Assembly (NCBI RefSeq): GCF_032444005.1
Contig: NC_091284.1
Coordinates: 826,522,001-826,586,000, forward strand
Direction of reading: 5' to 3'
From: Ranitomeya imitator
Lineage: Eukaryota
Length of the DNA stretch: 64,000 nucleotides
The notes below the pieces were generated by a model. The model saw only the letters and a list, made by a program, of their open reading frames with translations, ran no database searches and had not been told where the DNA came from. This document shows, piece by piece, positions 3,359 through 55,800 of this stretch (position 1 is its first letter; the number at the start of each line of letters is the position of its first letter). Position numbers and translations under genes: made by a program.

Positions 3359-3377
3359 CCGCCCTCGTCTCAGGATC

Positions 3378-32289: not shown

Positions 32290-33700
32290 CTAGATCCCCA
32301 CTGCCCTAGACCACCAGAGACGTAGGATCCCCACTGCCCTAGACCACCAGAGACGTAGGATCCCCACTGCCCTAGACCACCAGGGACGTAGGATCCCCAC
32401 TGCCCTAGACCACCAGGGACGTAGGATCCCCACTGCCCTAGACGACCAGGGACATAGGATCCCCACTGCCCTAAACCACCAGAGACGTAGGATCCCCACT
32501 GCCCTAGACGACCAGGGACGTAGGATCCCCACTGCCCTAGACCACCAGAGACGTAGGATCCCCACTGCCCTAAACCACCAGAGACGTAGGATCCCCACTG
32601 CCCTAGACGACCAGGGACGTAGGATCCCCACTGCCCTAGACCACCAGAGACGTAGGATCCCCACTGCCCTAGACGACCAGGGACATAGGATCCCCACTGC
32701 CCAAGACCACCAGAGACGTAGGATCCCCACTGCCCTAGACGACCAGGGACGTAGGATCCCCACTGCCCTAGATGACCAGGGACGTAGGATCCCCACTGCC
32801 CTAGACGACCAGGGACGTAGGGTCCCCACTGCCCTAGATGACCAGGGACGTAGGGTCCCCACTGCCCTAGACCACCAGAGACGTAGGATCCCCACTGCCC
32901 TAGACCACCAGAGACGTAGGATCCCCACTGCCCTAGACGACCAGGGACGTAGGATCCCCACTGCCCTAGACCACCAGAGACGTAGGATCCCCACTGCCCT
33001 AGACGACCAGGGACATAGGATCCCCACTGCCCAAGACCACCAGAGACGTAGGATCCCCACTGCCCTAGACCACCAGGGACGTAGGATCCCCACTGCCCTA
33101 GACCACCAGAGACGTAGGATCCCCACTGCCCTAGACGACCAGGGACGTAGGATCCCCACTGCCCTAGACCACCAGAGACGTAGGATCCCCACTGCCCTAG
33201 ACGACCAGGGACATAGGATCCCCACTGCCCAAGACCACCAGAGACGTAGGATCCCCACTGCCCTAGACGACCAGGGACGTAGGATCCCCACTGCCCTAGA
33301 TGACCAGGGACGTAGGATCCCCACTGCCCTAGACGACCAGGGACGTAGGGTCCCCACTGCCCTAAACCAACAAGGACCCCAGATCCCCACTGCCCTCGCC
33401 CAACAAGGACGCCGGATTCCCACTGTCTAAGACCACCATGGGCATCTGATCCCCACTGCCCTAGACCACCAGAGACGTAGGATCCCCACTGCCCTAGACG
33501 ACCAGGGACGTAGGATCCCCACTGCCCTAGACGACCAGGGACGTAGGATCCCCACTGCACTAAACCAACAAGGACCCCAGATCCCCACTGCCCTAGTCCA
33601 ACAAGGACGCCGGATTTCCACTGTCTAAGACCACCATGGGTGTCTGATCCCCACTGCCCTAGCTCTCCAGGGACCCTGGATCCTCACTGCACTAGACCAG
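32290..33700. repeat. 33-bp minisatellite (~42 copies)
   Basis: Unit GGATCCCCACTGCCCTAGACCACCAGAGACGTA; it produces the 11-aa periodic ORFs in the track. Confidence 0.95.
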
Positions 33701-35283: not shown

Positions 35284-35822
35284 CTATAAAAACTGGTGCA
35301 GTATTCTTTGGTGTCGCACGAGATTGGAGCTCTGAGAGAACCTACGTCCGCAGTGAGAGCACACGAACGGCCGCTCGCCAGTGTGGATGCGCTGGTGCTT
35401 GACGAGGCTGGATCTCTGGACAAAGCTGCGGGCGCATTCTGTGCAGTTAAAGGGCTTCTCTCCAGAATGGATCCGCTGATGAGTAACGAGCGCAGATCTC
35501 TCCGCAAAGCAGCGTCCGCACACTGGGCACGAGAACGGCTTCTCCCCCGTGTGCTTCCTCTTATGTGACAGAAGGCGAGAGCGCTGGCTGAAGGATTTGC
35601 CGCAGTAAGCGCAGGAATGGGGTTTCTCCTCGCTGTGGAATCGCTGGTGAGCGGCGAAAGCCGTCTCAGAACCGAAGTGAACTCCGCAGATGGAGCAGAA
35701 GAACAGGCTATCTGTACAGGGGGACTGCTGGCCGGGAGCGGGGTCCGAGGGATTTCGGACATGTCCTGGGGTCTGCAAACAATGGCGAATCATCACCGCA
35801 TCCAGTGAAGAGACGGTCGGAC
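35284..35822 (-). CDS. Terminal zinc-finger exon of the - strand ZNF gene
   Basis: ORF 35284-35841 has 5 tandem C2H2 fingers; acceptor ctcactgcag| at 35823. Confidence 0.93.
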
Positions 35823-38800
35823 CTGCAGTGAGCGAGATCAATGGTACACGGTCCCATCAGTGAGAACATGTAGAAGAAAGAAAAGCAGAATAAAGTAACA
35901 CTGTATAATCTACAGTATCCAATATACACATACTACACTGTGCTGCACTATTATATAATGGTATACTACTATATACAGTGGGTACAGAAAGTATTCACAC
36001 CCCTTTCAATTATTCACTCTTTGTTTCATTGCAGCCATTTGGTAAATTCTATAAAGTTCATTTTTTTCCTCATTAATGTTCACTCTGCATCCCATCTTGA
36101 GTGAAAAAACAGAAATGTAGAAATGTTTGCAAATAAAAAAAGAAAAACTGAAATATCCCATGGTCATAAGTCTTCAGCCCCTTTGCTCAGACACTCATAT
36201 GTAAGTCCCATGCTGTCCATTTCCTTGTGATCCTCCTTGAGATGGTTCTACTCCTTCATTGGAGTCCAGCTGTGTGTAACTAAACTGATAGGACTTGATT
36301 TGGAGCGGCGCACACCTGTCTATATAAGACCTCACAGCTCACAGTGCATGTCAGACCAAATGAGAATCATGAGGCCAAAGGAACTGGCCGAGGAGCTCAG
36401 AGACAGAATTGTGGCAAGGCACAGATCTGGCCAAGGTTACAGAATTTCTGTAGTACTCAAGGTTCCTAAGAGCACAGTGGCCTCCATAATCCTTAAATGG
36501 AAGAAGTTTGGGACCAGCAGAAGTCTTCATAGACCTGGCCGTCCAACCAAACTGAGCAACTGTGTATGACTGCATGCAGCTGCCCGGCCATAAAGCTCCT
36601 GGCGGGGCGCAGTGTTTGTGATGATACCAGAGGAGGTCTGGACTCTGCCGTTATGGGGTCAGCAGAGCGGTGGTGACGTTACGGGGTCTCCACTTGCTAC
36701 AGTTCCTTCAACTTCTCAGTAACAGCACTAACAAGAGATGGGGGAAGATTCAGGAGGAAGAAATGTAATGGTCGGACTTGTCACCCCGGTTGCTCCTATT
36801 ACAGGACCATGCTGGTATCAGGAGCTTTGCACCACCGGCCGCTCTGTCACATGTTAGTAAAGGCTGATGGCACGGTGGGGGGCACGGTGGGAGGGCCGGA
36901 GGTTATACATCGGGGGGGCGGCTGGTGTTGGATGTTATACATAGGAGCAAGGGACCAGATGTTGTACACCGGGGTTAATGGGGAATGAGGTCATACATCA
37001 GGGCCGAGGGGCCACATGTTGTACACTGGGGGGCAACTGGGCTGCGTTATACACCAGAGGCCGGATGTTATATATTGGGGGACAATTTGGCAGTAGCAAA
37101 CAAGAGAAATTCATTTGGTAGATGTGCGGCCCACCACTGTCCTCCATACGGTGTGTGCTGTAATTATAGAACACCACATAATAATATATGATATAATGTG
37201 CTATACTGCAATATAATGTACACTATGCAGTAATAATCCTGCACTATACGATCCTGTGCTCTGCCGCCATATACTGCACACTGCACAATACGGTGTTCCC
37301 TCTGTAATCATTACTATATGGATATACATCGGCCGCACGGTACTTATAGATCCCAAAACACAATGGCTGCCGCTCGTCTGACGTGACTTCCTTACCGGAG
37401 ATTATATAGTCAGGCGCGGCCTCCTCCTTACACGGCTGCTGACGGATCCAGTCGCTGACATCGGACTGTAATACAGGACCGCGGGTTAGAAGTGACGGCG
37501 GTATGCCGGGGTACAGAGTACATGATGTGACAGACTACCTGATCCTCCGGCGTCATCGCCTCATTATCCTCCTCTATGAAGTCGTCGGTACAGGCCGCCA
37601 TCGAGCAGTGATGGAGGCGATCCGCGGAATCCTCTCCACCTGCGCAAGATTAAAGGGGACCTCCAGCCAAAACTGAAAATCTGAACCCTCCGCCCCTCAC
37701 TCTCAGGCTTCAGTCTCCGGTGCAGGACATCGCCATCCAGCAGCAGCCAGTGTCGGCCATGTTGGTGTCTCCTCGTCAGCCAATCACAATGAATGAACAT
37801 TTTTGGTTTCATTTCCTTTCACTTTAGCCCCGTCCCACCCTGGGATGTACTTATTAAATTACAGGGTGGGTGCAGTGCGGCTGTCAGAATTGGATGACAA
37901 AAGGGCCCTGCTTTAAAAAAAAAAAAAGAAATCCGCACAGGCTGTGTAGGCCTCATTTATTTTAGTTGCCCATAGCAACCAATCAGAGAGCAGCTTTCAT
38001 TTCTTAAAAGGCTCTGGTAAAATGAAAGCTGAGCTGTGATTGGTTGCCATGGGCAACTAAGACAGATTTTCTCTTTATAAATCTGCCCCAATATATAAAT
38101 AATATATAGTGTCCGAGCTTCACAGGAGGACCAAGATGGCGGCCACTGGGGGTCTTTATCATGGAAACCCATCAGTTTAAAAGCTGTTGTCAGTAACCAG
38201 CTGCTTGATCATTCTCACACTTTCGTTTTCTTCCTCCCGATCTTCCGAGAGCCATCACTTTTTTATATTATTCCGGTGACATCGCCATATGAGGGCTTGT
38301 TTTTTAGCAGGACGATGAGTAATTTTGCATGTCACTATTTAATGTAATAAATTAAAAAAAAAAAAAAATCTGTAAAATTGTGAAAAAAAAAATTTCGCAA
38401 CTCCGTCAGTGTATTTTGGGTTTAGTTTTAATTGGCGTTTATTGTGGGTAAAAATAATCTGACATCATCATTATCCACGTCAGTGAGATTACGGCGAGGC
38501 GATACCAAAATTATATAAGTTTTTATTTTTTTCTAGAATTTAGTGGTGGGGAAAAAAAAAAAACCTTTAAAAGCAATTCTGGCATTTCCATTTTCTTTAC
38601 GGCTTGAATAATTTTATGTTATGATAGATCTCAATTTTACGGACGCGATGATAGCACATTTTTTATTTATTTTTTTTAACTAGGAAAAATCCAAAGGGGA
38701 GGAGTCAGTCTTTTATGTTTTACAATTTTTTATTTTTTTTTTATTTTTGGGGGGGACTTAACCCTGCGATTGTTTGATCACTTGTCTTATATAGTGTAAT

Positions 38801-41800
38801 ACTACAGTATAGCAGTGTGTAGTGATAATTGTACTCCCCTATGTCCCCAGCACACGTCTTGGCTTCACGGGAGTAGCAAGATGGCGGTTAAAGGGGTTGT
38901 TAATGGGCTGCCAATTTATCTGCAGTGGATGCCGGCTGTAAGACACAGCTCCTAGACCCGCACCCGAATGTCGGGGGGTTAAAGGTGGAAGTCGCTGGCG
39001 TCTCCCCTCGCAGTACCTAGACCACTGATACTATGATGGAGAACTCCTAGAACCATCCTGACCGGTAATCGGGTCATAGCGGTTATTGCCTTACCTGACC
39101 CGACGTCATCAGGAATGGCCGCCTCGTCCTCCTCCTTACACTGTTGAGGAAACATCCCATCCCCCGACGACTCGGCCTGCCATACACAAACAGTCATATT
39201 AGGACACCTTAAAGGGGTTGTCCATAAAGGGGCTAATTCCATGTAAATAAGATCTGACAGGTGCCGGATTATCGGATAATCCGGATTAATGTTCCTCGGA
39301 CTGTCGCCGATGCGGCCCATGTACCTGGCTCTCCTGCTGGTTGCAACACAGGGGGGTCCCACATTTTCTCAGGGGGCTTCCTGTACTAACTGCAGCTGCA
39401 GATAAAACAGTAACGAGAAACCGGAGGATCAATATTCAAGGATTAACCACAGTTTACATTTTTATTTAATCAATAGCACAGGGAAAAATACAATATTATC
39501 GGAGAAATCCACTTCTTTCTCCTCCTGCACTGATCATTTACTCTGAATTCTTGGGCACAATCTGCATTCAGTAGATTCTCCCATTACGGAGATGACAGTT
39601 GGTGCTCACAAGAGTCTATGGAGAGGGGAGGAGCTAGAAGCAGCGACCATCTGTTGCCAGCTCCATAGAACTTTATGAGAACCAACTGTCATCTCCTAAC
39701 TCCGTAATGTGAATCTGTTACAGTGAAGACACATTTTACCTGTGAACTGAGAATTTTAAGATTGAAAAATCAGTCCAGCAGGAGAAAAAAAAATCTAAAT
39801 TTCTCTGATGAGAAGTTTCTTATATTTGCACACACTATTGCGAGTTATGTAAAAAAAAAAAAAAATGACGGTTATTCTTTAATAGTAGCCGCCGCTGATC
39901 CCACTCAGCAGAGTTGATCACTCACCTGACACGTGATTTCCTATAGGGTCTGCACAGTCCGGCTCCAAAATTCTCTGATGATTTCGGGCAGAATCTTCTT
40001 GGGACAAAATGAAAAAGGTTTTTTTTTTTTGTTTGTTTTTTTTTAATTAACAAATGTACAACATCGTAATTGTTACTCATTTAACCCTTTAAAAAGAGAT
40101 GGCAATTTTTTCAACCATAGCTCCATAATCCCAAATTTTTCTTTTTCTTCCTACCTGCCTTCTGACTGATTCAGAGCCCGACCTTCACAGATGCCAAGTA
40201 ATTAACCAATCAATTAGTCGTTCAAACCATTCAGAAACTTTGAGGCCGTGTTCACTTTGCGTTTTTGCACCTTTTTTATGCATATTTTTAGCAGTGCTTT
40301 ATAGTACCAGCAAAGTCAATGAGATTTCAGAAATCTCCTGCACACACCTTGGTTTGTTTTCTGACTGTTTTGTCACAGGAGTTTGGAATTTGCAAAATGC
40401 AGCAGGTCAGTTTCAGTGTTTTTCACCCATTGAAAGCAATGGATAGTGCAAAAATATTGCAAAAACTAAGCAAAAAAAAAAAAAAACACAAGTGTTAGGT
40501 TTTGCTGCATTTTTGGTGCCAAAACCTTATGAAGTTGAATCAGGTTTTTTTTCCTTTTAATGCACTAAACTTTATCAGCATGCACAAGAGACAGTTGTAC
40601 CTTGACAAAAATGCAGGAAAAAAAAGGACAGCAAAGACAAAGCGAAAAAAGGCAACAAAGGCAAAGCGGAAAAAGGCAGCAAAAAAAGCAAAAAAAAGGC
40701 AACAAAGACAAAGCGGAAAAAGGCAGCAAAGACAAAGCGAAAAAAGGCAGCATAGACAAAGCGAAAAAAGGCAACAAAGACAAATCGAAAAAAGGCAACA
40801 AAGACAAAGCGGAAAAAGGCAGCAAAGACAAAGCGAAAAAAGGCAGCATAGACAAAGCGAAAAAAGGCAACAAAGACAAAGGGAAAAAAGGCAACAAAGA
40901 CAAAGCGGAAAAAGGCAGCATAAAAGCGAAAAATAGGCAACAAAGACAAAGCGGAAAAAGGCAGCAAAGACAAAGCGAAAAAAGGCAACAAAGACAAAGC
41001 GGAAAAAGGCAACAAAGACAAAGCGGAAAAAGGCAAACAAAGACAAAGCGGAAAAAGGTAAACAAAGACAAAGCGGAAAGAGGCAAAGACAAAGCGAAAA
41101 AAGGCAACAAAGACAAAGCAAAAAAGGGCAGCAAAGACAAAGCGGAAAAAGGCAGCAAAAACAGCGAAAAAAAGGCAAACAAAGACAAAGTGAAAAAGGT
41201 AACAAAGACAAAGCGAAAAAAGGCAACAAAGACAAAGCGGAAAAAAGCAAACAAAGACAAAGCGGAAAAAGGCAACAAAGACAAAGCGAAAAAAAGCAAC
41301 AAAGACAAAGCGGAAAAAGGCAAACAAAGACAAAGCAGAAAAAGGCAAAGACAAAGCGAAAAAAGGCAACAAAGATAAAGCGAAAGAAGGCAGCAAAGAC
41401 AAAGCGGAAAAAGTCAAACAAAGACAAAGCGGAAAAAGGCAGCAAAAAAAGCGAAAAAAAGGCAAACAAAGACAAAGTGAAAAAGGCAACAAAGACAAAG
41501 CGAAAAAAGGCAACAGAGACAAAGCGAAAAAAGGCAAGAAAGACAAAGCAGAAAAAGGCAGCAAAGACAGAGCGAAAAAAGGCAACAAAGACAAAGGGGA
41601 TAAAGGTAGCAAAGACAAAGTGGAAAAAGGCAGCAAAGACAAAGTGGAAAAAGGCAGCAAAGACAAAGTGGAAAAAGGCAGCAAAGACAAAGTGGAAAAA
41701 GGCAACAAAGACAAAGCGGAAAAAGGCAGCAAAGACAAAGCGGAAAAAGGCAGCAAAGACAAAGCAAAACCTGCTTTTTGTAAGCAGCTTTAACTTGACA

Positions 41801-44078
41801 TAAAGCAGCAAAAATGCAATGTGAACATAGCCTAAAGCTTCACTTTGGCTGTCAGTCCATCAGACTGAGTTTAAGAACGCAGCAGTCGTTCAAAACGCGT
41901 CCGGTTTCACCTCCTTGCACCCCTTGTCCTCCATCATGCCTGGGAATATTTTATAGTGTTGCCATATCTATATTAATCATGACATAAAGGATTTGATTTT
42001 ATGGATAGAAGCTGGACTCCTTCACAGGCAATATCAACATCCAGCAGAGACGAGACTCCGACTTCTCCGCACTAGAAACTTACTTGTTTTCAATCAAGGG
42101 TGAGCTGAATTGTGTTGTTGCCGTATTTGACAGACGGAGCCCCCCTCCCCCCTTGGTCTAACTGCTTAGGTGCTGCGGTTCCCAGTTGTCACAGCACTGA
42201 ACAACAGCCGGGATGACACATCTGACACCCGCTGCTGGTGACGCTCCAGGGTCCGTGCTGTGCTCGTACTGATGGAGCTGCACGTTCCCCCCCCCCCCCC
42301 GACACGTCCTGTCTGAGTGACCCCCAATTATGCAAAGAGATGCGTTGAAGACTTACTGGCGGAGCAGCGCAGCTCCATTCCACTAACCACCTTCTCATCT
42401 GCCGAACAGTCCCACGTGAAGATCACGGCGTCCTCACACTTTATGGGAACCTGCAGAGGACAGGATGCACGCGTTCAGTAGCGGACCTCAATGCATACAG
42501 AAAACAACAACTCTGCCCAAAATACGGCTCACCTGAACAGACGTAAAACATCCCACTGCTGGGGGTTTGTTGCTATTGCATCATGTCTCTATGTCCTGCA
42601 CCTAGACCTTTATACCAATTCATCGGTGCTGGTAAGTCTACTTTATACCAATTCATCGGTGCTGGTCAGTCTACTTTATACCAATTCATCTGTGCTGGTC
42701 AGTCTACTTTATACCAATTCATCGGTGCTGGTCAGTCTACTTTATACCAATGCATCGGTGCTGGTCAGTCTGGACTGGATACAACTGCAGCAAACCCTCA
42801 GCTGTTAGGTCAGGACAACGTTTCAGTCTCCGGATTTAAATTAAAGAAAAAAGTTCCATTCACTGAGAGCAAGCGGAGATCCTGAACGTGACGACAAAAC
42901 TGAAACATGAGAAAGTTGTAGAACTTCTCATTATACGAGGGTCCTCCCCCTATAATAAAAGGGACGCACATTTTCGGTATAAGTATTCTCCGCAGGTGCT
43001 GGGATCCTCCGGGCAGGATTCTCTGCAGTTACAGGTGCTGGAGGAGACTCCCCCGTCATTAGACTCGGACCCTCAGTACGTGTGTCTGACGCATGGCGTC
43101 CTTTCTTCTCCGTGATGCAGGGGTCCCCTGATTTTCTCATAACAACATAATCCTAAAAGTAAAAGGTACAGTATTAATGTCCAGTGATCACAATGATATT
43201 CATAAGATCCTTCAACGGAAAGAAAAGGGTTAATTAAAAAAAAAAAAAGGTTCTTTAATGGCTTTTTCTCCACTGGACCCAATGATCATGTGATCGCTAT
43301 GTATAGGGAGGAAGCAGAAACTGTGGGGTCCTAGAATATCCAGACAGGAGGCTGAATTTCCCCTGTAACTGGGGCAGAAATGCTCGGCCCGGTTACAGGG
43401 GATATCAAATTAGAAAACAATAAATTCAGCGTTGAAATGTCCCCCCAAAAAGGTTTTTAAGTCCCTTTATGAGATTTGACCCTGCGATCCATCAATCCCC
43501 CATACTTTATACTGCAGCTCTTTGGTGTATAGTGTGAGAGGACCGATCTCCTATGAAGCCCGAGCCTCGCTGTACTGACATGACTGCGCTGAGCATGGGG
43601 CCGATAGACACAGACTAGGCCATCCCCGCCATGTTGGAACCTTGGGGATCCATTGTCACGGCTGAACTAGCTCCGATTGTACCGGCTGCCGTGGTGTACG
43701 GAGGGTGCTCTGCTCCGGACAAGCTGCAAACGTATGGCGGATGTCAGCAAGGGGTTAAAGAGCATCGCACAGTGCCAGTCAGGGGCTGGGAAATATCTTC
43801 ACATCTTTATCCCTAGGAGAACCCTCTCAGCCAATCAGCAGAACCGACAGACATCACATGACACATGTAGTGTTTCTAAAGAGTCAGGGGGGAGGGGCTT
43901 ATTCCTCTGGCTCCTGATTGGAGGATGCAGAAAGTGAAAATGGCATGGTATCTCCCACCTCTCCGGTCAGCAGACAGATGATCTCCAGGGTCAGGTTCAG
44001 GAGCTTGTCTATGATCACATCCTTGTTCCTGTCAATCATCAGCGAGTGTCGGACGTGATCCATAAAGGGGATTTCCAT
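35284..44078 (-). CDS. C2H2 zinc-finger protein, paralogue of gene 1 with a degenerate KRAB box, ~419 aa
   Basis: Minus-strand exons 44078-43959 (MEIPF...LLNLTLEIICLLTGE), 43152-42970 (DYVVMRKSG...), 42450-42357 (VPIKCEDAVIFTW...), 39395-39325, 39176-39095 (..QCKEE..), 37639-37539, 37465-37396 (..PCKEE..), 35822-35284. GT-AG, phases consistent, 1260 nt in total. Five C2H2 fingers with SEEKP/TGEKP/SGEKP/TGERP linkers. Confidence 0.82.
35976..36567 (+). mobile_element. 5' fragment of a Tc1 element in the last intron of ZNF gene 2
   Basis: TA|CAGTGGGTACAGAAAGTATTCAC TIR; transposase N-terminus MRPKELAEELRDRIVARHRSG..KWKKFG..GRPTKLS. Confidence 0.85.
40244..41832. mobile_element. Harbinger-type MITE with an internally expanded A-rich ~24-bp repeat
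   Basis: GGCCGTGTTCAC ... GTGAACATAGCC|TAA termini (left flank TGA); AAAGACAAAGCGGAAAAAGGCAGC-like units over ~40625-41765. Confidence 0.7.
42607..42770. repeat. 33-bp tandem repeat (~5 copies)
   Basis: Unit TTTATACCAATTCATCGGTGCTGGTCAGTCTAC. Confidence 0.9.
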
Positions 44079-44159
44079 CTTCAATGGTCAATGTCGGCTG
44101 CGGGACGGAGCAAAAAAACCAAAAAGTAATGAACTACGAGACTGGGGACAGGAAGCCGC

Positions 44160-46830
44160 CTTAAGGGATCTTTCCCCTGCGGCAACTGTAATGTGTGCCC
44201 CTATATGATTGCCACTGATCTACTAACGCTCTCGGTTTTTCCAGATGGAATTGAAAGGAGAATATATTCCAACTGCTGATCCAGGAATGTGATCTACCTA
44301 CTCATTTGTTCATGCCCGAAGATATATGTTGGACAAACAAGTCAGGAAGTCAGACGAAGGATTCAGCAACATATATCAAACATTGGCAAGGCTAAAGGGG
44401 ATACGGAAAAGGATAGACCTATTTCATCAGTCGCATCCTTTTTTTTGGAAAACCATGAGAGCCATGATTGTGGACCAAGTGTTGGGCGGTATTCGTGGTG
44501 GTGATTGTGGACCAAGTGTTGGGCGGTATTCGTGGTGGTGATTGTGGACCAAATGTTGGGCAGTATTTGTGGTGGTGATTGTGGACCAAGTGTTGGGCGG
44601 TATTCGTGGTGGTGATTGTGGACCAAATGTTGGGCAGTATTTGTGGTGGTGATTGTGGACCAAGTGTTGGGCGGTATTCGTGGTGGTGATTGTGGACCAA
44701 GTGTTGGGCGGTATTCGTGGTGGTGACTGTGGACCAAGTGTTGGGCGGTATTCGTGGTGGTGATTGTGGACCAAGTGTTGGGCGGTATTCGTGGTGGTGA
44801 TTGTGGACCAAGTGTTGGGCGGTATTCGTGGTGGTGATTGTGGACCAAGTGTTGGGCGGTATTCGTGATGGTGATTGTGGACCAAGTGTTGGGCGCTATT
44901 CGTGGTGGTGATTGTGGACCAAGTGTTGGGCGGTATTCGTGGTGGTGATTGTGGACCAAGTGTTGGGCGCTATTCGTGGTGGTGATTGTGGACCAAGTGT
45001 TGGGCGGTATTCGTGGTGGTGATTGTGGACCAAGTGTTGGGCGGTATTCGTGGTGGTGATTGTGGACCAAGTGTTGGGCGGTATTCGTGATGGTGATTGT
45101 GGACCAAGTGTTGGGCGGTATTCGTGGTGGTGATTGTGGACCAAGTGTTGGGCGGTATTCGTGGTGGTGATTGTGGACCAAGTGTTGGGCGGTATTCGTG
45201 GTGGTGATTGTGGACCAAGTGTTGGGCGGTATTCGTGGTGGTGACTGTGGACCAAATGTTGGGCGGTATTTGTGGTGGTGATTGTGGACCAAGTGTTGGG
45301 CGGTATTTGTGGTGGTGATTGTGGACCAAGTGTTGGGCGGTATTCGTGGTGGTGATTGTGGACCAAGTGTTGGGCGGTATTCGTGGTGGTGACTGTGGAC
45401 CAAGTGTTGGGCGGTATTCGTGGTGGTGATTGTGGACCAAGTGTTGGGCGGTATTCGTGATGGTGATTGTGGACCAAGTGTTGGGCGCTATTCGTGGTGG
45501 TGATTGTGGACCAAGTGTTGGGCGGTATTCGTGGTGGTGATTGTGGACCAAGTGTTGGGCGCTATTCATGGTGGTGATTGTGGACCAAGTGTTGGGCGGT
45601 ATTCGTGGTGGTGATTGTGGACCAAGTGTTGGGCGGTATTCGTGGTGGTGATTGTGGACCAAGTGTTGGGCGGTATTCGTGGTGGTGATTGTGGACCAAG
45701 TGTTGGGCGGTATTCGTGATGGTGATTGTGGACCAAGTGTTGGGCGGTATTCGTGGTGGTGACTGTGGACCAAATGTTGGGCAGTATTTGTGGTGGTGAT
45801 TGTGGACCAAGTGTTGGGCGGTATTTGTGGTGGTGATTGTGGACCAAGTGTTGGGCGGTATTCGTGGTGGTGATTGTGGACCAAGTGTTGGGCGGTATTC
45901 GTGGTGGTGACTGTGGACCAAGTGTTGGGCGGTATTCGTGGTGGTGATTGTGGACCAAGTGTTGGGCGGTATTCGTGATGGTGATTGTGGACCAAGTGTT
46001 GGGCGCTATTCGTGGTGGTGATTGTGGACCAAGTGTTGGGCGGTATTCGTGGTGGTGATTGTGGACCAAGTGTTGGGCGCTATTCGTGGTGGTGATTGTG
46101 GACCAAGTGTTGGGCGGTATTCGTGGTGGTGATTGTGGACCAAGTGTTGGGCGGTATTCGTGGTGGTGATTGTGGACCAAGTGTTGGGCGGTATTCGTGA
46201 TGGTGATTGTGGACCAAGTGTTGGGCGCTATTTGTGGTGGTGATTGTGGACCAAGTGTTGGGCGGTATTCGTGGTGGTGATTGTGGACCAAGTGTTGGGC
46301 GGTATTCGTGGTGGTGATTGTGGACCAAGTGTTGGGCGGTATTTGTGGTGGTGATTGTGGACCAAGTGTTGGGCGGTATTTGTGGTGGTGATTGTGGACC
46401 AAGTGTTGGGCGGTATTCGTGGTGGTGATTGTGGACCAAGTGTTGGGCGGTATTCGTGGTGGTGACTGTGGACCAAGTGTTGGGCGGTATTCGTGGTGGT
46501 GATTGTGGACCAAGTGTTGGGCGGTATTCGTGGTGTTGACTGTGGACCAAGTGTTGGGCGGTATTCGTGGTGGTGATTGTGGACCAAGTGTTGGGCGGTA
46601 TTCGTGGTGGTGATTGTGGACCAAGTGTTGGGCGGTATTCGTGGTGGTGACTGTGGACCAAGTGTTGGGCGGTATTCGTGGTGGTGACTGTGGACCAAGT
46701 GTTGGGCGGTATTCGTGGTGGTGACCAGACTAAGGAACTACTACTACGTCGGGAATCCCGCTGGATCTTCGATTTGAATAGCACGTCACCTAATGGACTC
46801 CACGAGGAGCTTCTTTTCTCTGGGTTCTAC
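44160..46830 (+). mobile_element. Penelope-like element 3' fragment (GIY-YIG endonuclease) split by a minisatellite
   Basis: GSFPCGNCNVC...NVIYLLICSCPKIYVGQT..RRRIQQHISNI lies before the array; LLLRRESRWIFDLNSTSPNGL follows it. Confidence 0.85.
44466..46723. repeat. 37-bp minisatellite (~61 copies)
   Basis: Unit GTGGTGGTGATTGTGGACCAAGTGTTGGGCGGTATTC, very homogeneous. Confidence 0.97.
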
Positions 46831-47763
46831 GGCTGATCCGTATCCTGTACTAGTTGTCCCTGAGAAGGCTATGGTTCGGCCATTTCTGACTATAGTGGTC
46901 AATGAACATTGACAGGATTTCAGCTGATGGGACATTGCTTGTGGGTTTAAATACCAATTTATTCTGTTATCCCAACTATATAGTCTTTATATGGGACTTG
47001 TCGAGCTCTTTTGGGCTATTTTGGTCTTACCCTCATTCTATTTGGATGCTGTGTTCGGCTAGGGGTCTGTTACCATAATATTCACAGTACCATACGTCAC
47101 GAATATTTTGATTATGAAATCTAATTTTGAAATGAATATTAATAACAATGTTTCGATGCCGTGTGCTGTGTTGTGCTGGGGCGTTAGTATACAATATCAC
47201 AGTACCATACGCCATAAATATAGAAAAGTGATAATAACAACTATCTTTCCTGCATAGGTGCTGATATATGGATATTTATACTTTACAACCTTTTTGTGTT
47301 GACAGCTCGTGCCTATGTGGTCTTTATCCGCGTCGATATATTGATACTTATGTCCCATCTTTTGGACTATGGTATCAAACCCAAAGTAAGGTCTGAAAGG
47401 CTCCATATTTGCCAAATGTTGGGATGTCATTTCTATCTTATCCTTCTACATATCGGTTGGCAGCGATATCCGACGTGTGTGACATCATTCTATGGAGATG
47501 TGATCTACGGGAAACCAGATGTATATTACGTTTAAATGTCAAAAGCTTCTTTGCTCGGGATAAGGTCATGATCTTTGGCGATCATTTATTATCTATGTTT
47601 ATTTTTCTGTATATATTCTTGTACAATAGATTTTTTTTTTTTGGTTTGCCAATTCATCCCTGCATGTTCAAAAGATCATGACTTTATTTCTGTATTTGTT
47701 TCTTTCTCTTTGGTACATAATTGTAGGTACTTACTCATTTGGTCGGTGTTGGACATATTAGAT

Positions 47764-47949
47764 CAGGGGTCCCCAACTCCAGGCCTCGAGGGCCGCCAAC
47801 AGTGCAGGTTTTCAGGATTTCTTTAGTATTGCATCGGTGGTAATGTGATCATCTGCACAGGTGATGATTCCAACCCCTGTGCAATACTAAGGAAATCCTG
47901 AAAACCTGCACTGTTGGCGGCCCTCGAGGCCTGGAGTTGGGGGCCACTG
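47764..47949. mobile_element. hAT-family palindromic MITE
   Basis: CAGGGGTCCCCAAC ... GTTGGGGGCCACTG with a perfect 8-bp target duplication TATTAGAT (47756-47763 and 47950-47957). Confidence 0.9.
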
Positions 47950-49359
47950 TATTAGATGATGATGTAGCATTAGCGCTCCAGCTTTCTGTGTGCACGAGAA
48001 GCGCTTAGGATCACTGCGCTCCCTTCAGTGCGGTGCTGTGTGTTGCGCATGCGCCGGTGTTTTCTTCTACGCCTGCGCAGTAGTGATTACCTTGGCCGGC
48101 CATAAGTTGCTGGCGTACGCCGCTCTTTCGACCTCGCGCATGCGCAGTAGCCATCTAACACAACTTTATTGTTCAGTCCGGGCTTGGGCATTCACAAGAT
48201 TGTGCTCCATGTGCGCAGTTGTTTCTTTACGCAGGCGAACGCTTCCTATCATTATGAGAGCTATATATATAACTGTGAAGGACGCCTAACATAACATGCT
48301 GCTCTTTTCCCTGAGGAAGCCGCGACTTGGGCGGCGACGCGCGTGGGAACCTATCCCACATCCTGTCTCCCCACGTCACCTGACTTGATGCAGCAGCTTT
48401 TGGACTGTTGGGATGAGGGGGCTTTGGTTTGAGGATTGGGTTCTCTTATTTTTTCGTTCCCTCTCCAGAGTTCTAACTTTTTTACTTTTCATTTTTTGTC
48501 ATGTGCCTGATGTCTTGAACTGCTCAATATCATTATGCTGGAATTCTGCTCCGTATTGCTGGGTCTGTATGGTGCGGTGACAGTGACACCACCACGCACA
48601 TTGCATGATGGGCTTTGAGCCTTTGTATTCTGCAGTAACATCTTCATAGTGGGCTACACACGGTTTGTGGGTTCTCATCGCCCCCATATTAGGGCATGAC
48701 ATGCTGGATAGGTATTTTTTTGCACATTTGCAATTTTTAAGTGTTTTTAATTGTTTTGTTTTCCACATGTTCCTTTTTTTTTTAGGTTTGCTAATAAGAT
48801 ACAATTTCGATATTCCTATATGTGGAGGTGTTCCTCTATATGTGGGCATGATCTTTACCGTCACTCTCATTTCTGACCTGTCCCGACCACAGCGCTCAGA
48901 CGGACATAGACATTTGTTCATTTCGAGGGCATCTCCAAAATCAATACACGTCAGCTTTGTCAGATAACATAAAGCGAGACATTATTACTTCTAACGGCGG
49001 ATTCACTATATTTCTCTTTATTGCCCATATATGGCTTATAAAAAGCCATTTAATTAGACTGAGAATGACCTGAAGTGGCCCCGCCCATTGTAACAAGCAC
49101 AGCCAATCACAGCGCAGAATGCCAGGAGGAGCTCACGGCCATTGGCTACTTTGAACGTCAATCATTCCCTGTCTCCACAAACTGCTCATTCTCAGTAATA
49201 CAAACCACATGCGCAGGTTTTGGATAACTCCCGCCCCCTGCAGCCATAATATCAATATCTACGGCCGTCAGCCATCATTACCCCGCCCATGGGCATCCAT
49301 ACCGTGATCCCGGGGCAGCAGGGAGTATCAGCGGCACCGGATCACATTAGGATCTCTTG

Positions 49360-49820
49360 TACCTGCATTCGGCGCGCAAGGGCTGACGGAAGTTGTAGTC
49401 AGCTCTCAATACAAACTAAAGGAAAGTCAAACGAAAAGGACTACAGTTCCCAGAACGTCCACGTTACGCCCCGTCAGAAGATCGAAGTGGAACGTTTTTA
49501 TGCTGCTGCCACCTTTAGGCCGTGAGTGGAACTACAAGCGAGGAGGTACGAAGTGAGAATCACCGTGGCAACCGTGGTGTTTGTCTCCCGAGGTGCACCG
49601 CGGCCGGGCGTCCTTGGTAACAGCAGCGGGCAGAGCTGCCGGGATCGTCATGGGGCAGGATTATTACTCGGTGCTGGAGATAACCCGCAGCGCCGGGGAT
49701 GCCGACATTAAAAAAGCGTAAGAGTTATCAGCTATTGTGGGCGAGCTGTGGCAAAACTACAACTCCCAGCATGCCCCCACTGCTTGTGGCTATCTAGGCA
49801 TTCTGGGAGTTGTAGTTTTT
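49360..49820. promoter_or_regulatory. Bidirectional CpG promoter shared by DNAJB13 (+) and the - strand ZNF gene, with ZNF143/THAP11-type SBS motifs
   Basis: ACTACAGTTCCCAGAA at 49440-49455, GGAAGTTGTAGTC at 49388-49400, ACTACAACTCCCAGCATGC at 49756-49774 and its inverse at 49798-49816. Candidate minus-strand donor CAG|gtacaa at 49363 splices to the acceptor at 44097. Confidence 0.7.
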
Positions 49821-52800
49821 TGTATCACTTTTTGTGAAAGCGAAAAATGACAATTTGGATGTTTAGATATTTTTTTTCTTCACATTTTCTATAAATTGAA
49901 TTGAAATTTCCTTAGATTTTGCCAATTCTAGTGATCGTTATGTCACGCGCACTGCGCCTTATGCATCCTGCTGTGAGATCCGTCAGCAGCAGCTTGCTGA
50001 CGGTTTCCCGGTCGGGAGGGATTTCATTATCCTGCTCAGATTAGAGTAAAAAAACAAAAAAAATAATCAATGTAGATTCTAAAACTGCCGGATTTTCGGT
50101 CACTGACTACAGAGCCCCTTTTAATCCCCCCGTGTACATTTGTTTGGGGGGTCCAGGTACCGGAAGTGGGCACTGAAGTATCATCCGCTGAAAAATAAGG
50201 AGCCGTCCGCTCCGCACCGATTCTGCCAGATCGCCGAGGCCTACGATGTTCTCAGTGACCGTGAGTAAACCTGTGCCGCCTTCTCACAGCGGAGGGTTTG
50301 TTACAGTGGGACACAGCAGGAGACATGTTACCTGCGCCGATACATTGTCACAAACTACCAGGACAGGACGCCGATGATGCGTTTAGGATACAACGGTAAC
50401 AAACCTTCAGCTGCGAGTAATATCCGCGCGTGTTCACATGTGGAGTCTGCTGAATGTTGTGGTGAAGAGGCGACATGTCCCCCGTCCCCTCCTGTACTCA
50501 TCCTCCCTCGTCTCTGAGCAGCCAGGAAGAAGGCGACTTACGATAAGTTCGGAGAGGAGGGTCTGAAGGGCGGGATCCCGGCAGAATTCGGGGGTCCGGA
50601 CGCCTGGACATCGGGGTACGTGTATCACGGGAATCCGGACAAGACCTTCAAGGAGTTTTTTGGGGGAGATAATCCATTTGCAGGTAAGATCCGGTGACGG
50701 GTTGATCTGGCGGTGGGAGGGGGGTTGTGGATCGGGACCCCCCAGACCAGACACGTGATGGGGTCCTGGACCGGCCTCTTATCATTTGGGGCGCTCGTTG
50801 CACCCAGAATACAATTCGTCTCTGGTTTCTGTGAATTCCCGCCATCGGCTCAGGCGTTTCATTGTGTTTCTGCTCCAGACTTTTTCTCACCAGACGGGTC
50901 TGAAGTCAATACAGGATTTGGGGGTCTGCGAGGAAGAGGAGTGAAGAAACAGGACCCCCCGATCGAGCGAGATCTCTACGTCTCCCTGGAGGACTTGTAT
51001 TTTGGATGCATAAAGAAAATCAAAATTTCACGAAGGGTAAGAGGCGTCCTCCGGACTTGTGTAAAAAAATCTGCACGTTATACTGGATCATTATTACCCG
51101 CTCCTTCCCTCAGACCTCCAGGACACGGCACCTGCTCCCTCCCTCAAACCCTCAAGTCCCGGTACCTGCTTCCTCACTCTTTCCCTCAGGATCAGGCACC
51201 TGCTCCCTTCCTCAGACCCCCAGGACCGGGCACCTGCTGTCTCCCTCAAACACCACAGAGCGGGCACCTGCTCCCTCTCTCAGACCTCCCCGGAGGGGGC
51301 ACCTGCTCCCTCCCTCAGACGCCCAGGATCAGGCACCTGTGCTCTCCCTCAGACCTCCAGGATCAGGCACCTGCTCCCTCCCTCAGACCTCCAGGATCAG
51401 GCACCTGCTCCCTCCCTCAGACGCCCAGGATCAGGCACCTGCTTCCTCCCTCAGACCTCCAGGACAGGGCACCTGCTCTCTCCCTCAAGCCCCCCGAAGT
51501 GGACCCCTGCTCCGTCCCTCAGACCTCCAGGACTGAGCATCTGCTCTCTCCCTCAGACCCCGCAGAGCGGGCACCTGCTTCCTTCCTCAGACCCCCAGGA
51601 CAGGGCACTTGCTCCCTCTCTCAGACCACCCCGGAGGGGGCACCTGCTCCCTCCCTCAGACCCCCAGGATCAGGCACCTGCTCCATCCCTCAGACCCCTA
51701 GAACCAAGCATCTGCTCTCTCCCTCAGACCCCGCAGAGCGGGCACCTGCTTCCTTCCTCAGACCCCCAGGACAGGGCACCTGCTCCCTCCCTGAAGCCCC
51801 TCGGAGCGGGCACCTGCTCCTTCCCTCCCTCCCTCAGGCCCCCAGGTCCCGGCACCTGCTTCCTCACTCTGACTCCCAGTTCAGGCACCTGCTCCCTCCC
51901 TCAGACCTCCTGGACAGGGCACCTGCTCCCTCCCTCAGATCCCCAGGATAGGGCACCTACTTCCTCCCTCAGACCTCCTGGACAGGGCACCTGCTCCCTC
52001 CCTCAGACCTCCTGGACAGGGCACCTACTTCCTCCCTCAGATCCCCAGGATAGGGCACCTACTTCCTCCCTCAGACCTCCAGGATCAGGCACCTGCTCCC
52101 TCCCTCAGACGCCCAGGATCAGGCACCTGCTCCCTCCCTCAGACGCCCAGGATCAGGCACCTGCTTCCTCCCTCAGGGCTCCTGCTCTCTCCCTCAAGCC
52201 CCCCGAAGTGGACCCCTGCTCCGTCCCTCAGACCTCCAGGACTGAGCATCTGCTCTCTCCCTCAGACCCCGCAGAGCGGGCACCTGCTTCCTTCCTCAGA
52301 CCCCCAGGACAGGGCACTTGCTCCCTCTCTCAGACCTCCCCGGAGGGGGCACCTGCTCCCTCCCTCAGACCCCCAGGATCAGGCACTTGCTCCATCCCTC
52401 AGACCCCTAGAACCAAGCATCTGCTCTCTCCCTCAGACCCCGCAGAGCGGGCACCTGCTTCCTTCCTCAGACTCCCAGGACAGGGCACCTGCTCCCTCCC
52501 TGAAGCCCCTCGGAGCGGGCACCTGCTCCTTCCCTCCCTCCCTCAGGCCCCCAGGTCCCGGCACCTGCTTCCTCACTCTGACTCCCAGTTCAGGCACCTG
52601 CTCCCTCCCTCAGACCTCCTGGACAGGGCACCTGCTCCCTCCCTCAGATCCCCAGGATAGGGCACCTACTTCCTCCCTCAGACCTCCTGGACAGGGCACC
52701 TGCTCCCTCCCTCAGATCCCCAGGATAGGGCACCTACTTCCTCCCTCAGATCCCCAGGATAGGGCACCTACTTCCGCCCTCAGACCTCCAGGACAGGGCA

Positions 52801-55800
52801 CCTGCTCCCTCCCTCAGACCCCCAGGATAGGGCAACTGCTCCCTCCCTCAGACCCCCAGGATAGGGCACCTGCTCCCTCCCTCAGATCCCCAGGATAGGG
52901 CACCTGCTCCCTCCCTCAGATCCCCAGGATAGGGCACCTACTTCCTCCCTCAGACCTCCTGGACAGGGCACCTGCTCCCTCCCTCAGACCTCCTGGACAG
53001 GGCACCTGCTCCCTCCCTCAGATCCCCAGGATAGGGCACCTACTTCCTCCCTCAGACCTCCTGGACAGGGCACCTGCTCCCTCCCTCAGACCTCCTGGAC
53101 AGGGCACCTACTTCCTCCCTCAGATCCCCAGGATAGGGCACCTACTTCCTCCCTCAGACCTCCAGGATAGGGCACCTACTTCCTCCCTCAGACCTCCAGG
53201 ACAGGGCACCTGCTCCCTCCCTCAGACCCCCAGGATAGGGCACCTGCTCCCTCCCTCAGACCCCCAGGATAGGGCACCTGCTCCCTCCCTCAGATCCCCA
53301 GGATAGGGCACCTACTTCCTCCCTCAGATCCCCAGGATAGGGCACCTACTTCCTCCCTCAGACCTCCAGGACAGGGCACCTGCTCCCTCCCTCAGACCCC
53401 CAGGATAGGGCACCTGCTCCCTCCCTCAGACCCCCAGGATAGGGCACCTGCTCCCTCCCTCAGACCCCCAGGATAGGGCACCTGCTCCCTCCCTCAGATC
53501 CCCAGGATAGGGCACCTGCTCCCTCCCTCAGATCCCCAGGATAGGGCACCTACTTCCTCCCTCAGATCCCCAGGATAGGGCACCTACTTCCTCCCTCAGA
53601 CCTCCAGGACAGGGCACCTGCTCCCTCCCTCAGACCCCCAGGATAGGGCACCTGCTCCCTCCCTCAGACCCCCAGGATAGGGCACCTGCTCCCTCCCTCA
53701 GATCCCCAGGATAGGGCACCTGCTCCCTCCCTCAGATCCCCAGGATAGGGCACCTACTTCCTCCCTCAGATCCCCAGGATAGGGCACCTGCTCCCTCCCT
53801 CAGACCCCCAGGATAGGGCACCTGCTCCCTCCCTCAGATCCCCAGGATAGGGCACCTGCTCCCTCCCTCAGACGTCCAGGACATGGCACCTGCTCCCTCC
53901 CTCAGACCCCCAGGATAGGGCACCTGCTCCCTCCCTCAGACCCCCAGGATAGGGCACCTGCTCCCTCCCTCAGATCCCCAGGATAGGGCACCTGCTCCCT
54001 CCCTCAGACCCCCAGGATAGGGCACCTGCTCCCTCCCTCAGACCCCCAGGATAGGGCACCTGCTCCCTCCCTCAGATCCCCAGGATAGGGCACCTACTTC
54101 CTCCCTCAGATCCCCAGGATAGGGCACCTGCTCCCTCCCTCAGACCCCCAGGATAGGGCACCTGCTCCCTCCCTCAGATCCCCAGGATAGGGCACCTGCT
54201 CCCTCCCTCAGACCCCCAGGATAGGGCGCCTACTTCCTCCCTCAGACCTCCAGGACAGGGCACCTGCTCCCTCCTTTAGACCCCCAGGATAGGGCACCTG
54301 CTCCCTCCCTCAGACCCCCAGGACCAGGTACCCGCTCCTCCCTCAGATCCCCAGTATTAGGCACCTGCTAGCTCCCTAAGACCCCCAGGACTGGGCACTT
54401 GCTCCCTCAGACCCCCAGTATTAGGCACCTGCTAGCTCACTAAGACCTCCCGAACTGGGCATCTGCTCCATCCTTCAGACCCCCAGGACCGAGCACATTC
54501 TCCCTCAGACCCCCAGGACCGAGCACGTTCTCCCTCAGACCCCCAGGAGCGGGTTATGGCTGTATGGACACATATATAACACGTATCTCTGTGACCGCAG
54601 GTAATGAATGAAGACGGCCACACATCCAGCATACGAGATAAGATCCTCTCCATAGACGTCCATCCTGGATGGAAAGCGGGCACCAGGGTCACGTTCCCCA
54701 AAGAGGGCGACCAGGTCACAAGCAGCCGCTTCTCCCATAATTTATGCCGATTGTCTCTTTAAGAAATAATATAATATGTTATTCTGTGTTTAGGGCCCGA
54801 ACATCGTCCCCACGGACATCGTGTTTATCGTGAAGGAGAAGCCCCACCCCCGCTTTACACGACAGGACGACGATTTGATCCACACAGCGAACATCGAACT
54901 TAGCAAAGTAAGAAAAAAGAGAAATGTGTGAGCACCGGTGCGATCTGTAACCTGCGCTGCACCGCCAGCGCCGAGGAGGAGGAGCTGCAGACATCACGCT
55001 CGCTCTGGGGTCGCCATAGTGGTGACAACAAAGTATTCAGATGAACTTCCTGTCATGTGACCAGAAGTCATCAGACAGGATTCTGTTCATGTCACCATGG
55101 CGACCCCAGAGCGAGCATGATCATATAAACCGCAGCATGAGAGGAGAAAACAATGATGGTGCGTACCAGAGACGGGTGTCAGACTGTGACCAGACCGCAC
55201 TGCGGACGCTGTCACTAGTGGACCGGACACCTGCTATGGAGCCCTGGCTGCGTCCTCTGCTCTATGTACCATGTGTATGCCGGAATCAATGGTGACAGTG
55301 ACGACAGGAGCTCTGGGGGGGGAGACCCTAAAGGGGATGATGCACGGACGAGTGCTCTCTCCTGAAGGATCATCCTATCATCCTTGTGTCACTAGTCCCA
55401 GCACGAGCTCCTCCAGGCTGCCACATCCCTACCTGCCCCCACGGGAAGGTGCGCTGTGCCCCCCAGCACCGTCTCAGGGGAGCAGAAATCAGGACATGGG
55501 TCCTTACACCAGGAGAGACGGACAGGGACATAGACTGGAGGAACAAAGCGAGCTCGGCCAAACAGGGCACCTGCTCCTCCCTCAGACCCCCCAGGACAGT
55601 GCATCTGCACCTTCACTCAGACCCCCAGGATCAGGCACCTGCTCCCTCCCTCAGACCCCCAGGATCAGGCACCTGCTTCCTCCCTCAGCCCCCCCAGGAC
55701 CGTGCATCTGCACCTTCACTCAGACCCCCAGGATCAGGCACCTGCTCCCTCCCTCAGACCCCGAGGATCAAGCACCTGCTCCCTCCCTCAGACCCCCAGG

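What the first reader, a model, noticed from the sequence alone, without database searches (positions are those of the whole stretch)
44160..46830. Minisatellite amplified from Penelope endonuclease coding sequence
Seen: the 37-bp unit read in frame is IVDQVLGGIRGGD. Removing all but one copy rejoins ...RAMIVDQVLGGIRGGD-QTKELLLRRESRWIFDLNSTSPNGL, the C-terminus of a Penelope GIY-YIG endonuclease (a separate frameshift lies just upstream). The unit ends share a TGA microhomology. About 61 near-identical copies (2.26 kb) have therefore arisen from one piece of TE coding sequence inside intron 1 of the ZNF gene. Inference: slippage or rolling-circle amplification seeded by the microhomology, showing satellite birth from a retroelement ORF.
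Basis: partly seen in the sequence, partly recalled or inferred. Interest (0 to 1): 0.7.

Follow-up and report, generated by a model that had tools for sequence, protein, structure and literature searches.

The report
Minisatellite grown inside dead Penelope copy
A 37-base piece of a dead jumping gene's nuclease code stands 61 times in a row at one place, in the first intron of a host gene, most likely grown step by step by ordinary DNA copying and recombination errors, which makes it a clean but familiar case of repeat DNA born from a transposon.

Summary
Observation confirmed. A 61 x 37-bp array (44465-46724) sits in the endonuclease-coding end of a Penelope-like copy (44132-48856, Neptune-type motifs, cut at both ends) that fills 91% of intron 1 (44098-49302; both joints seen in two RNA-like contigs). 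All 30 of 33 family loci that span the site hold one unit. The junction occurs nowhere else except by chance. Read contigs of a second organism about 5% divergent also show head-to-tail junctions, so a tandem array is real; its length is not verified. Corrections: the 'frameshift' is a 20-bp deletion ending 2 bp before the array; 37 bp is not a codon multiple, so no protein repeat exists; 40 differences reduce to 8 shared variants with multi-unit blocks, which rejects one rolling-circle burst; the 3-bp microhomology is weak evidence (5-6% by chance). The locus lies 21 Mb from the contig end, where tandem repeats cover 30% against 9% inside. Transposon-derived minisatellites are known in human and in frog subtelomeres. 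This scan noted two similar Penelope-ORF arrays in other genomes (unchecked). Verdict: new member of a known kind.

The parts
44132..48856 (+). Penelope-like element copy (Neptune-type motifs), cut short at both ends; about 2.3 kb without the extra units and the nested MITE
   Evidence: Likeness to relatives begins at 44132-44133 in 17 of 19 loci while they run on upstream into the reverse transcriptase; likeness ends at 48856 while 7 of 7 relatives shown run on. No target-site duplication seen by eye.
44133..44453 (+). Linker CxxCxxC motif and GIY-YIG core with CxC; in-frame stop at 44277-44279
   Evidence: Translation; Pfam GIY-YIG 29.6 bits; 63% amino-acid identity to the 836-aa open frame of L116 over 112 residues.
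44454..44464 (+).
   Evidence: All 30 spanning loci hold the 20 bases; pairwise alignments place the gap at 44459-44463.
44465..46724 (+). Minisatellite: 61 units of 37 bp plus TGAC; 8 variant sites shared among units; multi-unit blocks
   Evidence: junctions in read contigs.
46722..46837 (+). C-terminal end of the endonuclease frame to its stop, with a 3-bp insertion near 46737
   Evidence: 76% amino-acid identity to L116 over 49 residues.
47764..47949 (.). Nested palindromic MITE (92-nt arms, 86% complementary) with an 8-bp target-site duplication (47756-47763, 47950-47957)
   Evidence: very high read depth. The hAT-type label is recalled from the 8-bp duplication, not tested.
48307..48350 (+). 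Hammerhead-like motif in the 3' untranslated part (CUGAGGA, 5-bp stem); core departs from the canonical GAAA
   Evidence: Kept in 8 relatives' alignment rows; stem folds; no Rfam hammerhead hit.
49303..49365 (-). Exon 1 (non-coding as far as seen) of the host gene
   Evidence: Contigs of X4 (1407 nt) and X8 (1396 nt) lie on 49303-49365 / 49303-49358 and go on at 44098; GT donor.
43959..44097 (-). Exon 2 of the host gene with ATG at 44078; its acceptor lies 32 bases from the element's edge
42970..43152 (-). Exon 3 of the host gene
   Evidence: Joint 43151/43958 in X4 and X8; GT-AG edges.
35284..35856 (-). C2H2 zinc-finger exon, likely the last exon of the same gene
   Evidence: Pfam zf-C2H2.

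Best explanation
The array is a single-locus minisatellite made from 37 bases of endonuclease code inside a truncated Penelope-like copy, and it most likely began as one tandem duplication in chromosomal DNA after the insertion and then grew stepwise by unequal exchange, gene conversion or slippage. Shown: ancestral single unit, one locus, shared variants, intron place, repeat-rich chromosome end, junctions in a second organism. Inferred: that the first duplication came after insertion, that the TGA microhomology guided it, and that recombination in the long subtelomere drove growth. The TGAC variant equals the base of the right flank and leans to the right end, which would fit conversion from the flank into the array. 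No function is proposed; the intron is spliced out.
For: 30 of 33 loci span the site with one unit. Junction 20-mer: 58 matches in the array, 1 elsewhere, 0 for the reversed control; the one elsewhere is an unrelated 28-bp array. 40 differences from the majority unit are 8 distinct variants; independent mutation gave at least 19 (mean 26.9), or at least 9 (mean 17.9) with CpG sites at 15-fold, in 10,000 runs each. A 7-unit block recurs at units 11 and 41; lag-14 periodicity P=0.038. TGAC units are 8, 22, 26, 36, 40, 55, 57, 60, 61; one-sided P=0.047, post hoc. Tandem-repeat cover 29.7% in 20 samples of the last 30 Mb against 9.4% in 20 inner samples, P=0.004; the window holds 6 arrays of 500 bp or more. 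Organism B crosses the 5' insertion edge (contig 43121-44171, 49 other letters in 1051) and shows unit-to-unit loose ends at 44465 and 46725. No array in 98,670 ORF-derived bases of 61 other family loci. Published parallels: PMC3389668, PMC10794172, PMC13167724.
Against: The present units have been turned over, so the array cannot show how or how large it was born. The microhomology is only 3 bp (5.2-5.8% by chance) and shorter than the 5-20 bp counted for this model in PMC3389668. A 20-bp deletion abuts the array (hand estimate about 3% by chance, post hoc, from about 5 window-specific gaps in 2.3 kb); plain slippage does not predict it. The periodicity and polarity tests are marginal (P 0.04-0.05). 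Read depth over the unit is about 12-14 times single-copy, not 61, and the tool says depth is no copy number. The 61 loci are top-scoring hits, biased towards unbroken copies, and a few are pieces of one copy. No recombination rate was measured here, and the contig end is assumed to be a chromosome end.
Confidence: 0.75

Rival explanations
1. The first duplication and the 20-bp deletion were one repair event at a DNA break (end joining with template slippage), followed by the same stepwise growth. This is a variant of the birth step, not of the growth, and overlaps the best explanation.
For: The deletion ends 2 bp from the array and is absent from all 30 spanning relatives; the junction leaves a 6-mer twice, 9 bp apart (sequence), as templated repair can (recalled). 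An unchecked scan note reports a Penelope-ORF array at a deletion in another genome.
Against: About 5 other window-specific gaps lie in the 2.3-kb copy, so adjacency is only about a 3% event, post hoc. The 20-bp gap itself has no microhomology in the best alignment. Whether organism B has the deletion is not shown (one search lists no row).
Confidence: 0.3
2. The element's own reverse transcriptase, a telomerase relative, stalled after copying the unit, realigned on TGA, recopied it repeatedly and escaped by a 20-nt jump; the seed array was thus made at insertion and later homogenised.
For: The deletion lies on the side that cDNA synthesis reaches after the unit, 333 bp before the 5' cut (sequence; direction inferred). 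PLE and telomerase RTs are sisters (PMC8557442). PMC3389668 suggests that some arrays start during retrotransposition. Two unchecked scan notes describe similar arrays in Penelope RT code.
Against: 0 arrays in 98,670 ORF-derived bases of 61 other loci and 0 of 7 copies with TGA at both ends expanded. No stable RNA hairpin at the site (z +0.95, +0.75). Shared variants need DNA-level copying. The region makes arrays freely.
Confidence: 0.08
3. One burst of rolling-circle copying of a 37-bp circle made the 61 units.
For: Units are near-identical: 1.8% from the majority unit.
Against: Variants are shared by up to 9 scattered units and come in blocks. The unit holds no hammerhead, unlike Penelope-derived retrozyme arrays; the motif lies 1.6 kb away.
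Confidence: 0.03
4. The array is an assembly artefact, or a satellite unit that came in from elsewhere.
For: No contig spans the array; depth gives 12-14 fold only; X1 may be the assembly's own sample.
Against: Head-to-tail loose ends and raised depth in a different organism; structured variants; the unit is part of the family's coding sequence; no other array of this unit.
Confidence: 0.03

Closest known systems
Transposon-derived minisatellites in the extended subtelomeres of frogs (52-bp piece of SINE/tRNA-V; CR1, Kolobok-2; PMC10794172, passages read)
   Same: A short piece of a dispersed retroelement amplified in place within the last 30 Mb of a chromosome; unequal crossing over proposed.
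   Different: Here the source is endonuclease code of a Penelope-like element and the array is at one locus; there the SINE tail expanded at many subtelomeric copies. Their Supplementary Table 16 was not among the files held and may list Penelope cases.
Human TE-derived tandem repeats (Ahmed and Liang 2012, PMC3389668, parts 1-3 of 4 read)
   Same: 7,276 arrays (23%) come from transposons, 5,747 of 5,932 clusters single-locus, 601 from L1; growth is local and gradual.
   Different: Most have about 2 units; 61 is at the long end. Only 300 have 5-20-bp flanking repeats; this one has 3 bp.
Satellites from retroelement ORFs: chicken HinfI/CR1 ORF2, PROsat and Pvc20/LINE-1 ORF2, rye gag-derived (review PMC9659126, passages read)
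   Same: Repeat unit taken from coding sequence of a retroelement.
   Different: Those are multi-locus satellite families; 'penelope' has 0 occurrences in that review's main text.
Microhomology-mediated tandem duplication (PMC13167724, passages read; the Haber-Louis model as cited there)
   Same: Single-copy segment flanked by a short repeat duplicates and can then expand.
   Different: Shown mainly in microbes and human; here one case with a 3-bp arm and an abutting deletion.
Non-LTR retrozymes, tandem arrays from Penelope-like terminal repeats (bioRxiv 10.64898/2026.07.22.740005, passages read)
   Same: Tandem arrays that descend from Penelope-like elements in amphibians.
   Different: Those units come from the terminal repeat and carry a hammerhead; this unit is coding and carries none.

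Membership tests
Penelope-like element (EN+), host of the array | Single ORF with reverse transcriptase and C-terminal GIY-YIG endonuclease | tested here: met
   Met in relatives: L010 RVT_1 (26.6 bits, under the 29.6 cut-off) upstream of GIY-YIG (25.1, over cut-off); 836-aa frames with YIDD at 461 and the endonuclease at 724. The window copy keeps only the endonuclease end.
Penelope-like element (EN+), host of the array | [quoted passage not shown] | tested here: met
   CxC inside the core, then QQH and VASHF in relatives; the window copy has lost the second of these histidines (VASFF).
Penelope-like element (EN+), host of the array | Pseudo-LTRs with a minimal hammerhead (PMC4209133, part 1 of 4 read) | tested here: inconclusive
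   A conserved CUGAGGA-stem motif at 48307-48350 with a non-canonical core; no Rfam hit; no second terminal repeat in this truncated copy.
Neptune clade | CX2-5CxxC motif in the linker before GIY-YIG (absent in Penelope/Poseidon) | tested here: met
   CGNCNVC in the window and at 686 in L116; feature from PMC8557442. Nematis shares it.
Neptune clade | Place in the RT tree with reference elements | not tested
   No reference sequences were fetched.
TE-derived single-locus minisatellite (PMC3389668 criteria) | Unit 20 bp or more, GC 40% or more, units 95% alike, overlapping a transposon by one period or more | tested here: met
   37 bp, 20 of 37 G+C, 96% matches, wholly inside the element.
TE-derived single-locus minisatellite (PMC3389668 criteria) | One locus in the genome | tested here: met
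   Exact junction pattern only; diverged arrays could be missed.
Haber-Louis direct-repeat birth | Flanking direct repeat of 5 bp or more | tested here: not met
   3 bp in the nearest relative. It passes the 3-bp class of PMC13167724.
Variable-number tandem repeat | Length differs between alleles | not testable with these tools
   Only short-read contigs were served.
Non-LTR retrozyme | Hammerhead inside the repeated unit | tested here: not met
   No motif in the 37-mer (sequence).
Multi-locus satellite DNA family | Arrays at many loci | tested here: not met

The most novel reading that the evidence does not exclude
The array is a fossil of telomerase-like repeat addition by a Penelope-like reverse transcriptase: it stalled on its own RNA, realigned on a 3-base match, recopied 37 bases many times and escaped by a 20-base jump, so Penelope insertions would seed minisatellites directly, with a deletion scar on the 5' side as the mark.
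Probability: 0.08. Interest if true: 0.75.

Novelty: new member of a known kind. Interest (0 to 1): 0.27.

Why it matters
The first duplication that starts a minisatellite is rarely visible; PMC3389668 could assign a known mechanism to only 6% of human transposon-derived arrays. Here the family gives the ancestral state base by base, so the birth scar (3-bp microhomology, abutting 20-bp deletion, flank-like variant) can be read, and the array is shared with a relative. That makes a good teaching case and one row for a genome-wide survey, not a new principle. It would matter much more if such arrays proved to be made by the element's telomerase-like enzyme.

Tried and rejected
Second locus at C10: an unrelated 28-bp array. 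Rfam: no hammerhead; the microRNA-type hits, all under their cut-offs, are mostly the MITE hairpin. RNA roadblock at the unit: folds no better than shuffles. G-quadruplex drive: G4Hunter mean 0.62, best 25-mer 0.96, under the usual 1.2 (threshold recalled); the unit is among the most G-skewed 37-mers of the region (4 of 481 windows as skewed or more). Protein repeat: frame shifts at each unit. Family-wide proneness: none seen. Pfam found no family for exons 2, 3 or the KRAB-like exon from 42450. No run was on record as RNA; X4 and X8 are taken as RNA because their contigs skip GT-AG introns. Parts without cover in X1 (44404-44461) and X3 (46784-47080, 47378-47575) are not used as evidence. No look-alike windows among earlier findings. 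Print searches: (Penelope, reverse transcriptase, reiterative, template, tandem repeats) 0 papers; others (10 papers; 25 of 152 listed) showed no title on an array from Penelope endonuclease code; listings only, apart from the papers named as read, and subscription papers are not held. Supplementary Table 16 of PMC10794172 was not available.

Full report
Observation. TRF finds a 37-bp array of 61.1 copies at 44465-46724. In register it is 61 units plus TGAC, of 11 types. The flanks translate to the end of a GIY-YIG endonuclease; 44280-44453 passes the Pfam cut-off. Because 37 is not a multiple of three, only the edge units read in that frame.

The host element. A search of the own genome (5.96 Gb) with the left flank gave 19 other loci at 75-87% identity. 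They carry reverse transcriptase upstream; a protein search gave open frames of about 836 aa with YIDD, CxxCxxC and the CxC-bearing GIY-YIG core. By the features in PMC8557442 (passages) this is a Penelope-like element of Neptune type, not Penelope/Poseidon proper; no tree was built. The window copy runs 44132-48856 and is cut at both ends. It has a stop at 44277-44279, a 20-bp deletion, a 3-bp insertion, a nested MITE with an 8-bp target duplication and a hammerhead-like motif with a non-canonical core. Its nearest relative found is 92.2% alike over 370 aligned bases.

Ancestral state. I examined 33 loci: 19 and 14 of the 30 (15 duplicates and the window's own locus dropped). Thirty span the site in one piece; each has one unit and the 20 bases that the window lacks; 7 have TGA at both ends. 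Of the other three, L005 and L064 look like halves of one copy split by an insert, and L014 breaks off in the unit. The junction pattern matched 58 times in the array and once on C10, in an unrelated 28-bp array. In 98,670 ORF-derived bases of 61 loci TRF found no internal array; these are top hits, biased to unbroken copies. So the array grew in place, once.

Gene context. Contigs of two runs (X4, 1407 nt; X8, 1396 nt) join 49303 to 44098 and 43958 to 43151 at GT-AG edges. Intron 1 is 44098-49302 on the minus strand; the element is antisense and fills 4725 of 5205 bases, starting 32 bases from the acceptor. That the gene ends in the zinc-finger exon at 35284-35856 is inferred. A DnaJ-domain gene starts head to head at 49650 (the name DNAJB13 is recalled). 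That the animal is a frog is my inference from the gene style (recalled) and is not given by any search.

Reality and age. A contig of X1 (43682-44215) crosses the 5' insertion edge with 3 differences; X1 may be the assembly's own sample. X3, another organism, crosses it with 49 other letters in 1051, shows a unit end before 44465 and a unit start behind 46725, and has depth 175 over the unit against 12.6 beside it. A tandem array therefore exists in both, and likely predates their split. Length is not verified: depth is no copy number and no contig spans the array. X3's long contig stops matching at 48855, which I cannot explain.

How it grew. The 61 units differ from the majority unit at 40 places but by only 8 distinct changes; independent mutation never gave so few in 10,000 runs under either model. 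A 7-unit block recurs and lag 14 is weakly periodic (P=0.038). Variants were therefore copied after they arose, in single and multi-unit steps, which rejects one burst from a monomer circle. One variant equals the right flank's base and leans right (P=0.047, post hoc); organism B has it too. The array lies 21.2 Mb from the contig end; tandem repeats cover 29.7% of 20 samples in the last 30 Mb against 9.4% of 20 inner samples (P=0.004) and 29.1% of the window. PMC10794172 reports the same landscape, high recombination and transposon-derived minisatellites at frog chromosome ends (passages).

How it began. The array cannot show this, having been turned over. The microhomology is 3 bp, met by 5.2-5.8% of random duplications here, and 5-bp ones nearby were unused: mild support. 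The deletion ending 2 bp from the array is about a 3% coincidence by my post hoc hand estimate, so a joint repair event is a live option (0.3). Reiteration by the element's reverse transcriptase fits the side of the deletion, but other copies show no arrays and the RNA has no hairpin there: 0.08. Two unchecked notes of this scan describe Penelope-ORF arrays in other genomes, one at a deletion; they are leads only.

Comparison and verdict. Transposon-derived minisatellites make up 23% of human ones (PMC3389668, parts 1-3 of 4), ORF-derived satellites are reviewed (PMC9659126, passages), and microhomology-led duplication is general (PMC13167724, passages). I found no paper on an array from Penelope endonuclease code (listings), but one supplementary table that may bear on it was not available. 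New member of a known kind; interest 0.27.

Noticed in passing
L008/L035, L014, L015/L037, L119: Four of 61 family loci abut unrelated minisatellites (26, 34, 29, 29 bp). In L037 the same 29-bp repeat lies on both sides, so the element went into an existing array. Chance in a repeat-rich genome or a target bias; not tested.
   Followed up: partly
window 48855, run X3: A 2446-nt contig of organism B stops matching at the element's 3' edge and goes on for 88 unlike letters: its allele differs there (longer tail, deletion or another insert). Unexplained.
   Followed up: no
window 48307-48350: The family keeps a hammerhead-like motif with GAUA where the canonical core has GAAA; the window copy has lost a further two bases. 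Activity unknown.
   Followed up: partly
window 47764-47949: Palindromic MITE with 8-bp target duplication; read depth is far higher over its left half in X1 than in X3, which may mean lineage-specific spread.
   Followed up: partly
window 49303-49650: Head-to-head start of the zinc-finger gene (minus) and a DnaJ-domain gene (plus) within about 300 bases; a 34-bp-family array of 6.7 kb (51096-57790) follows a DnaJ exon.
   Followed up: partly
window 44100-44132: The insertion begins 32 bases from the exon 2 acceptor, next to a possible branch site; spliced contigs show that the intron is still removed.
   Followed up: partly
window 1747-3360, 3968-8033, 32293-33699, 40620-41769, 42608-42771: Other minisatellites of 24-33 bp; the 30-bp one lies between exons of a second zinc-finger gene (KRAB hit in 8034-8483, fingers 10099-11112). 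Their sources were not traced.
   Followed up: no
window 24644-28976 (minus): An LTR-retrotransposon-like gag-pol frame of 1048 aa with further pieces; a relative splits the Penelope-like copy at L005/L064. Described only.
   Followed up: no
L115-L131: Several Penelope-like copies with open frames of 815-942 aa, some as inverted pairs: a related subfamily looks young.
   Followed up: no
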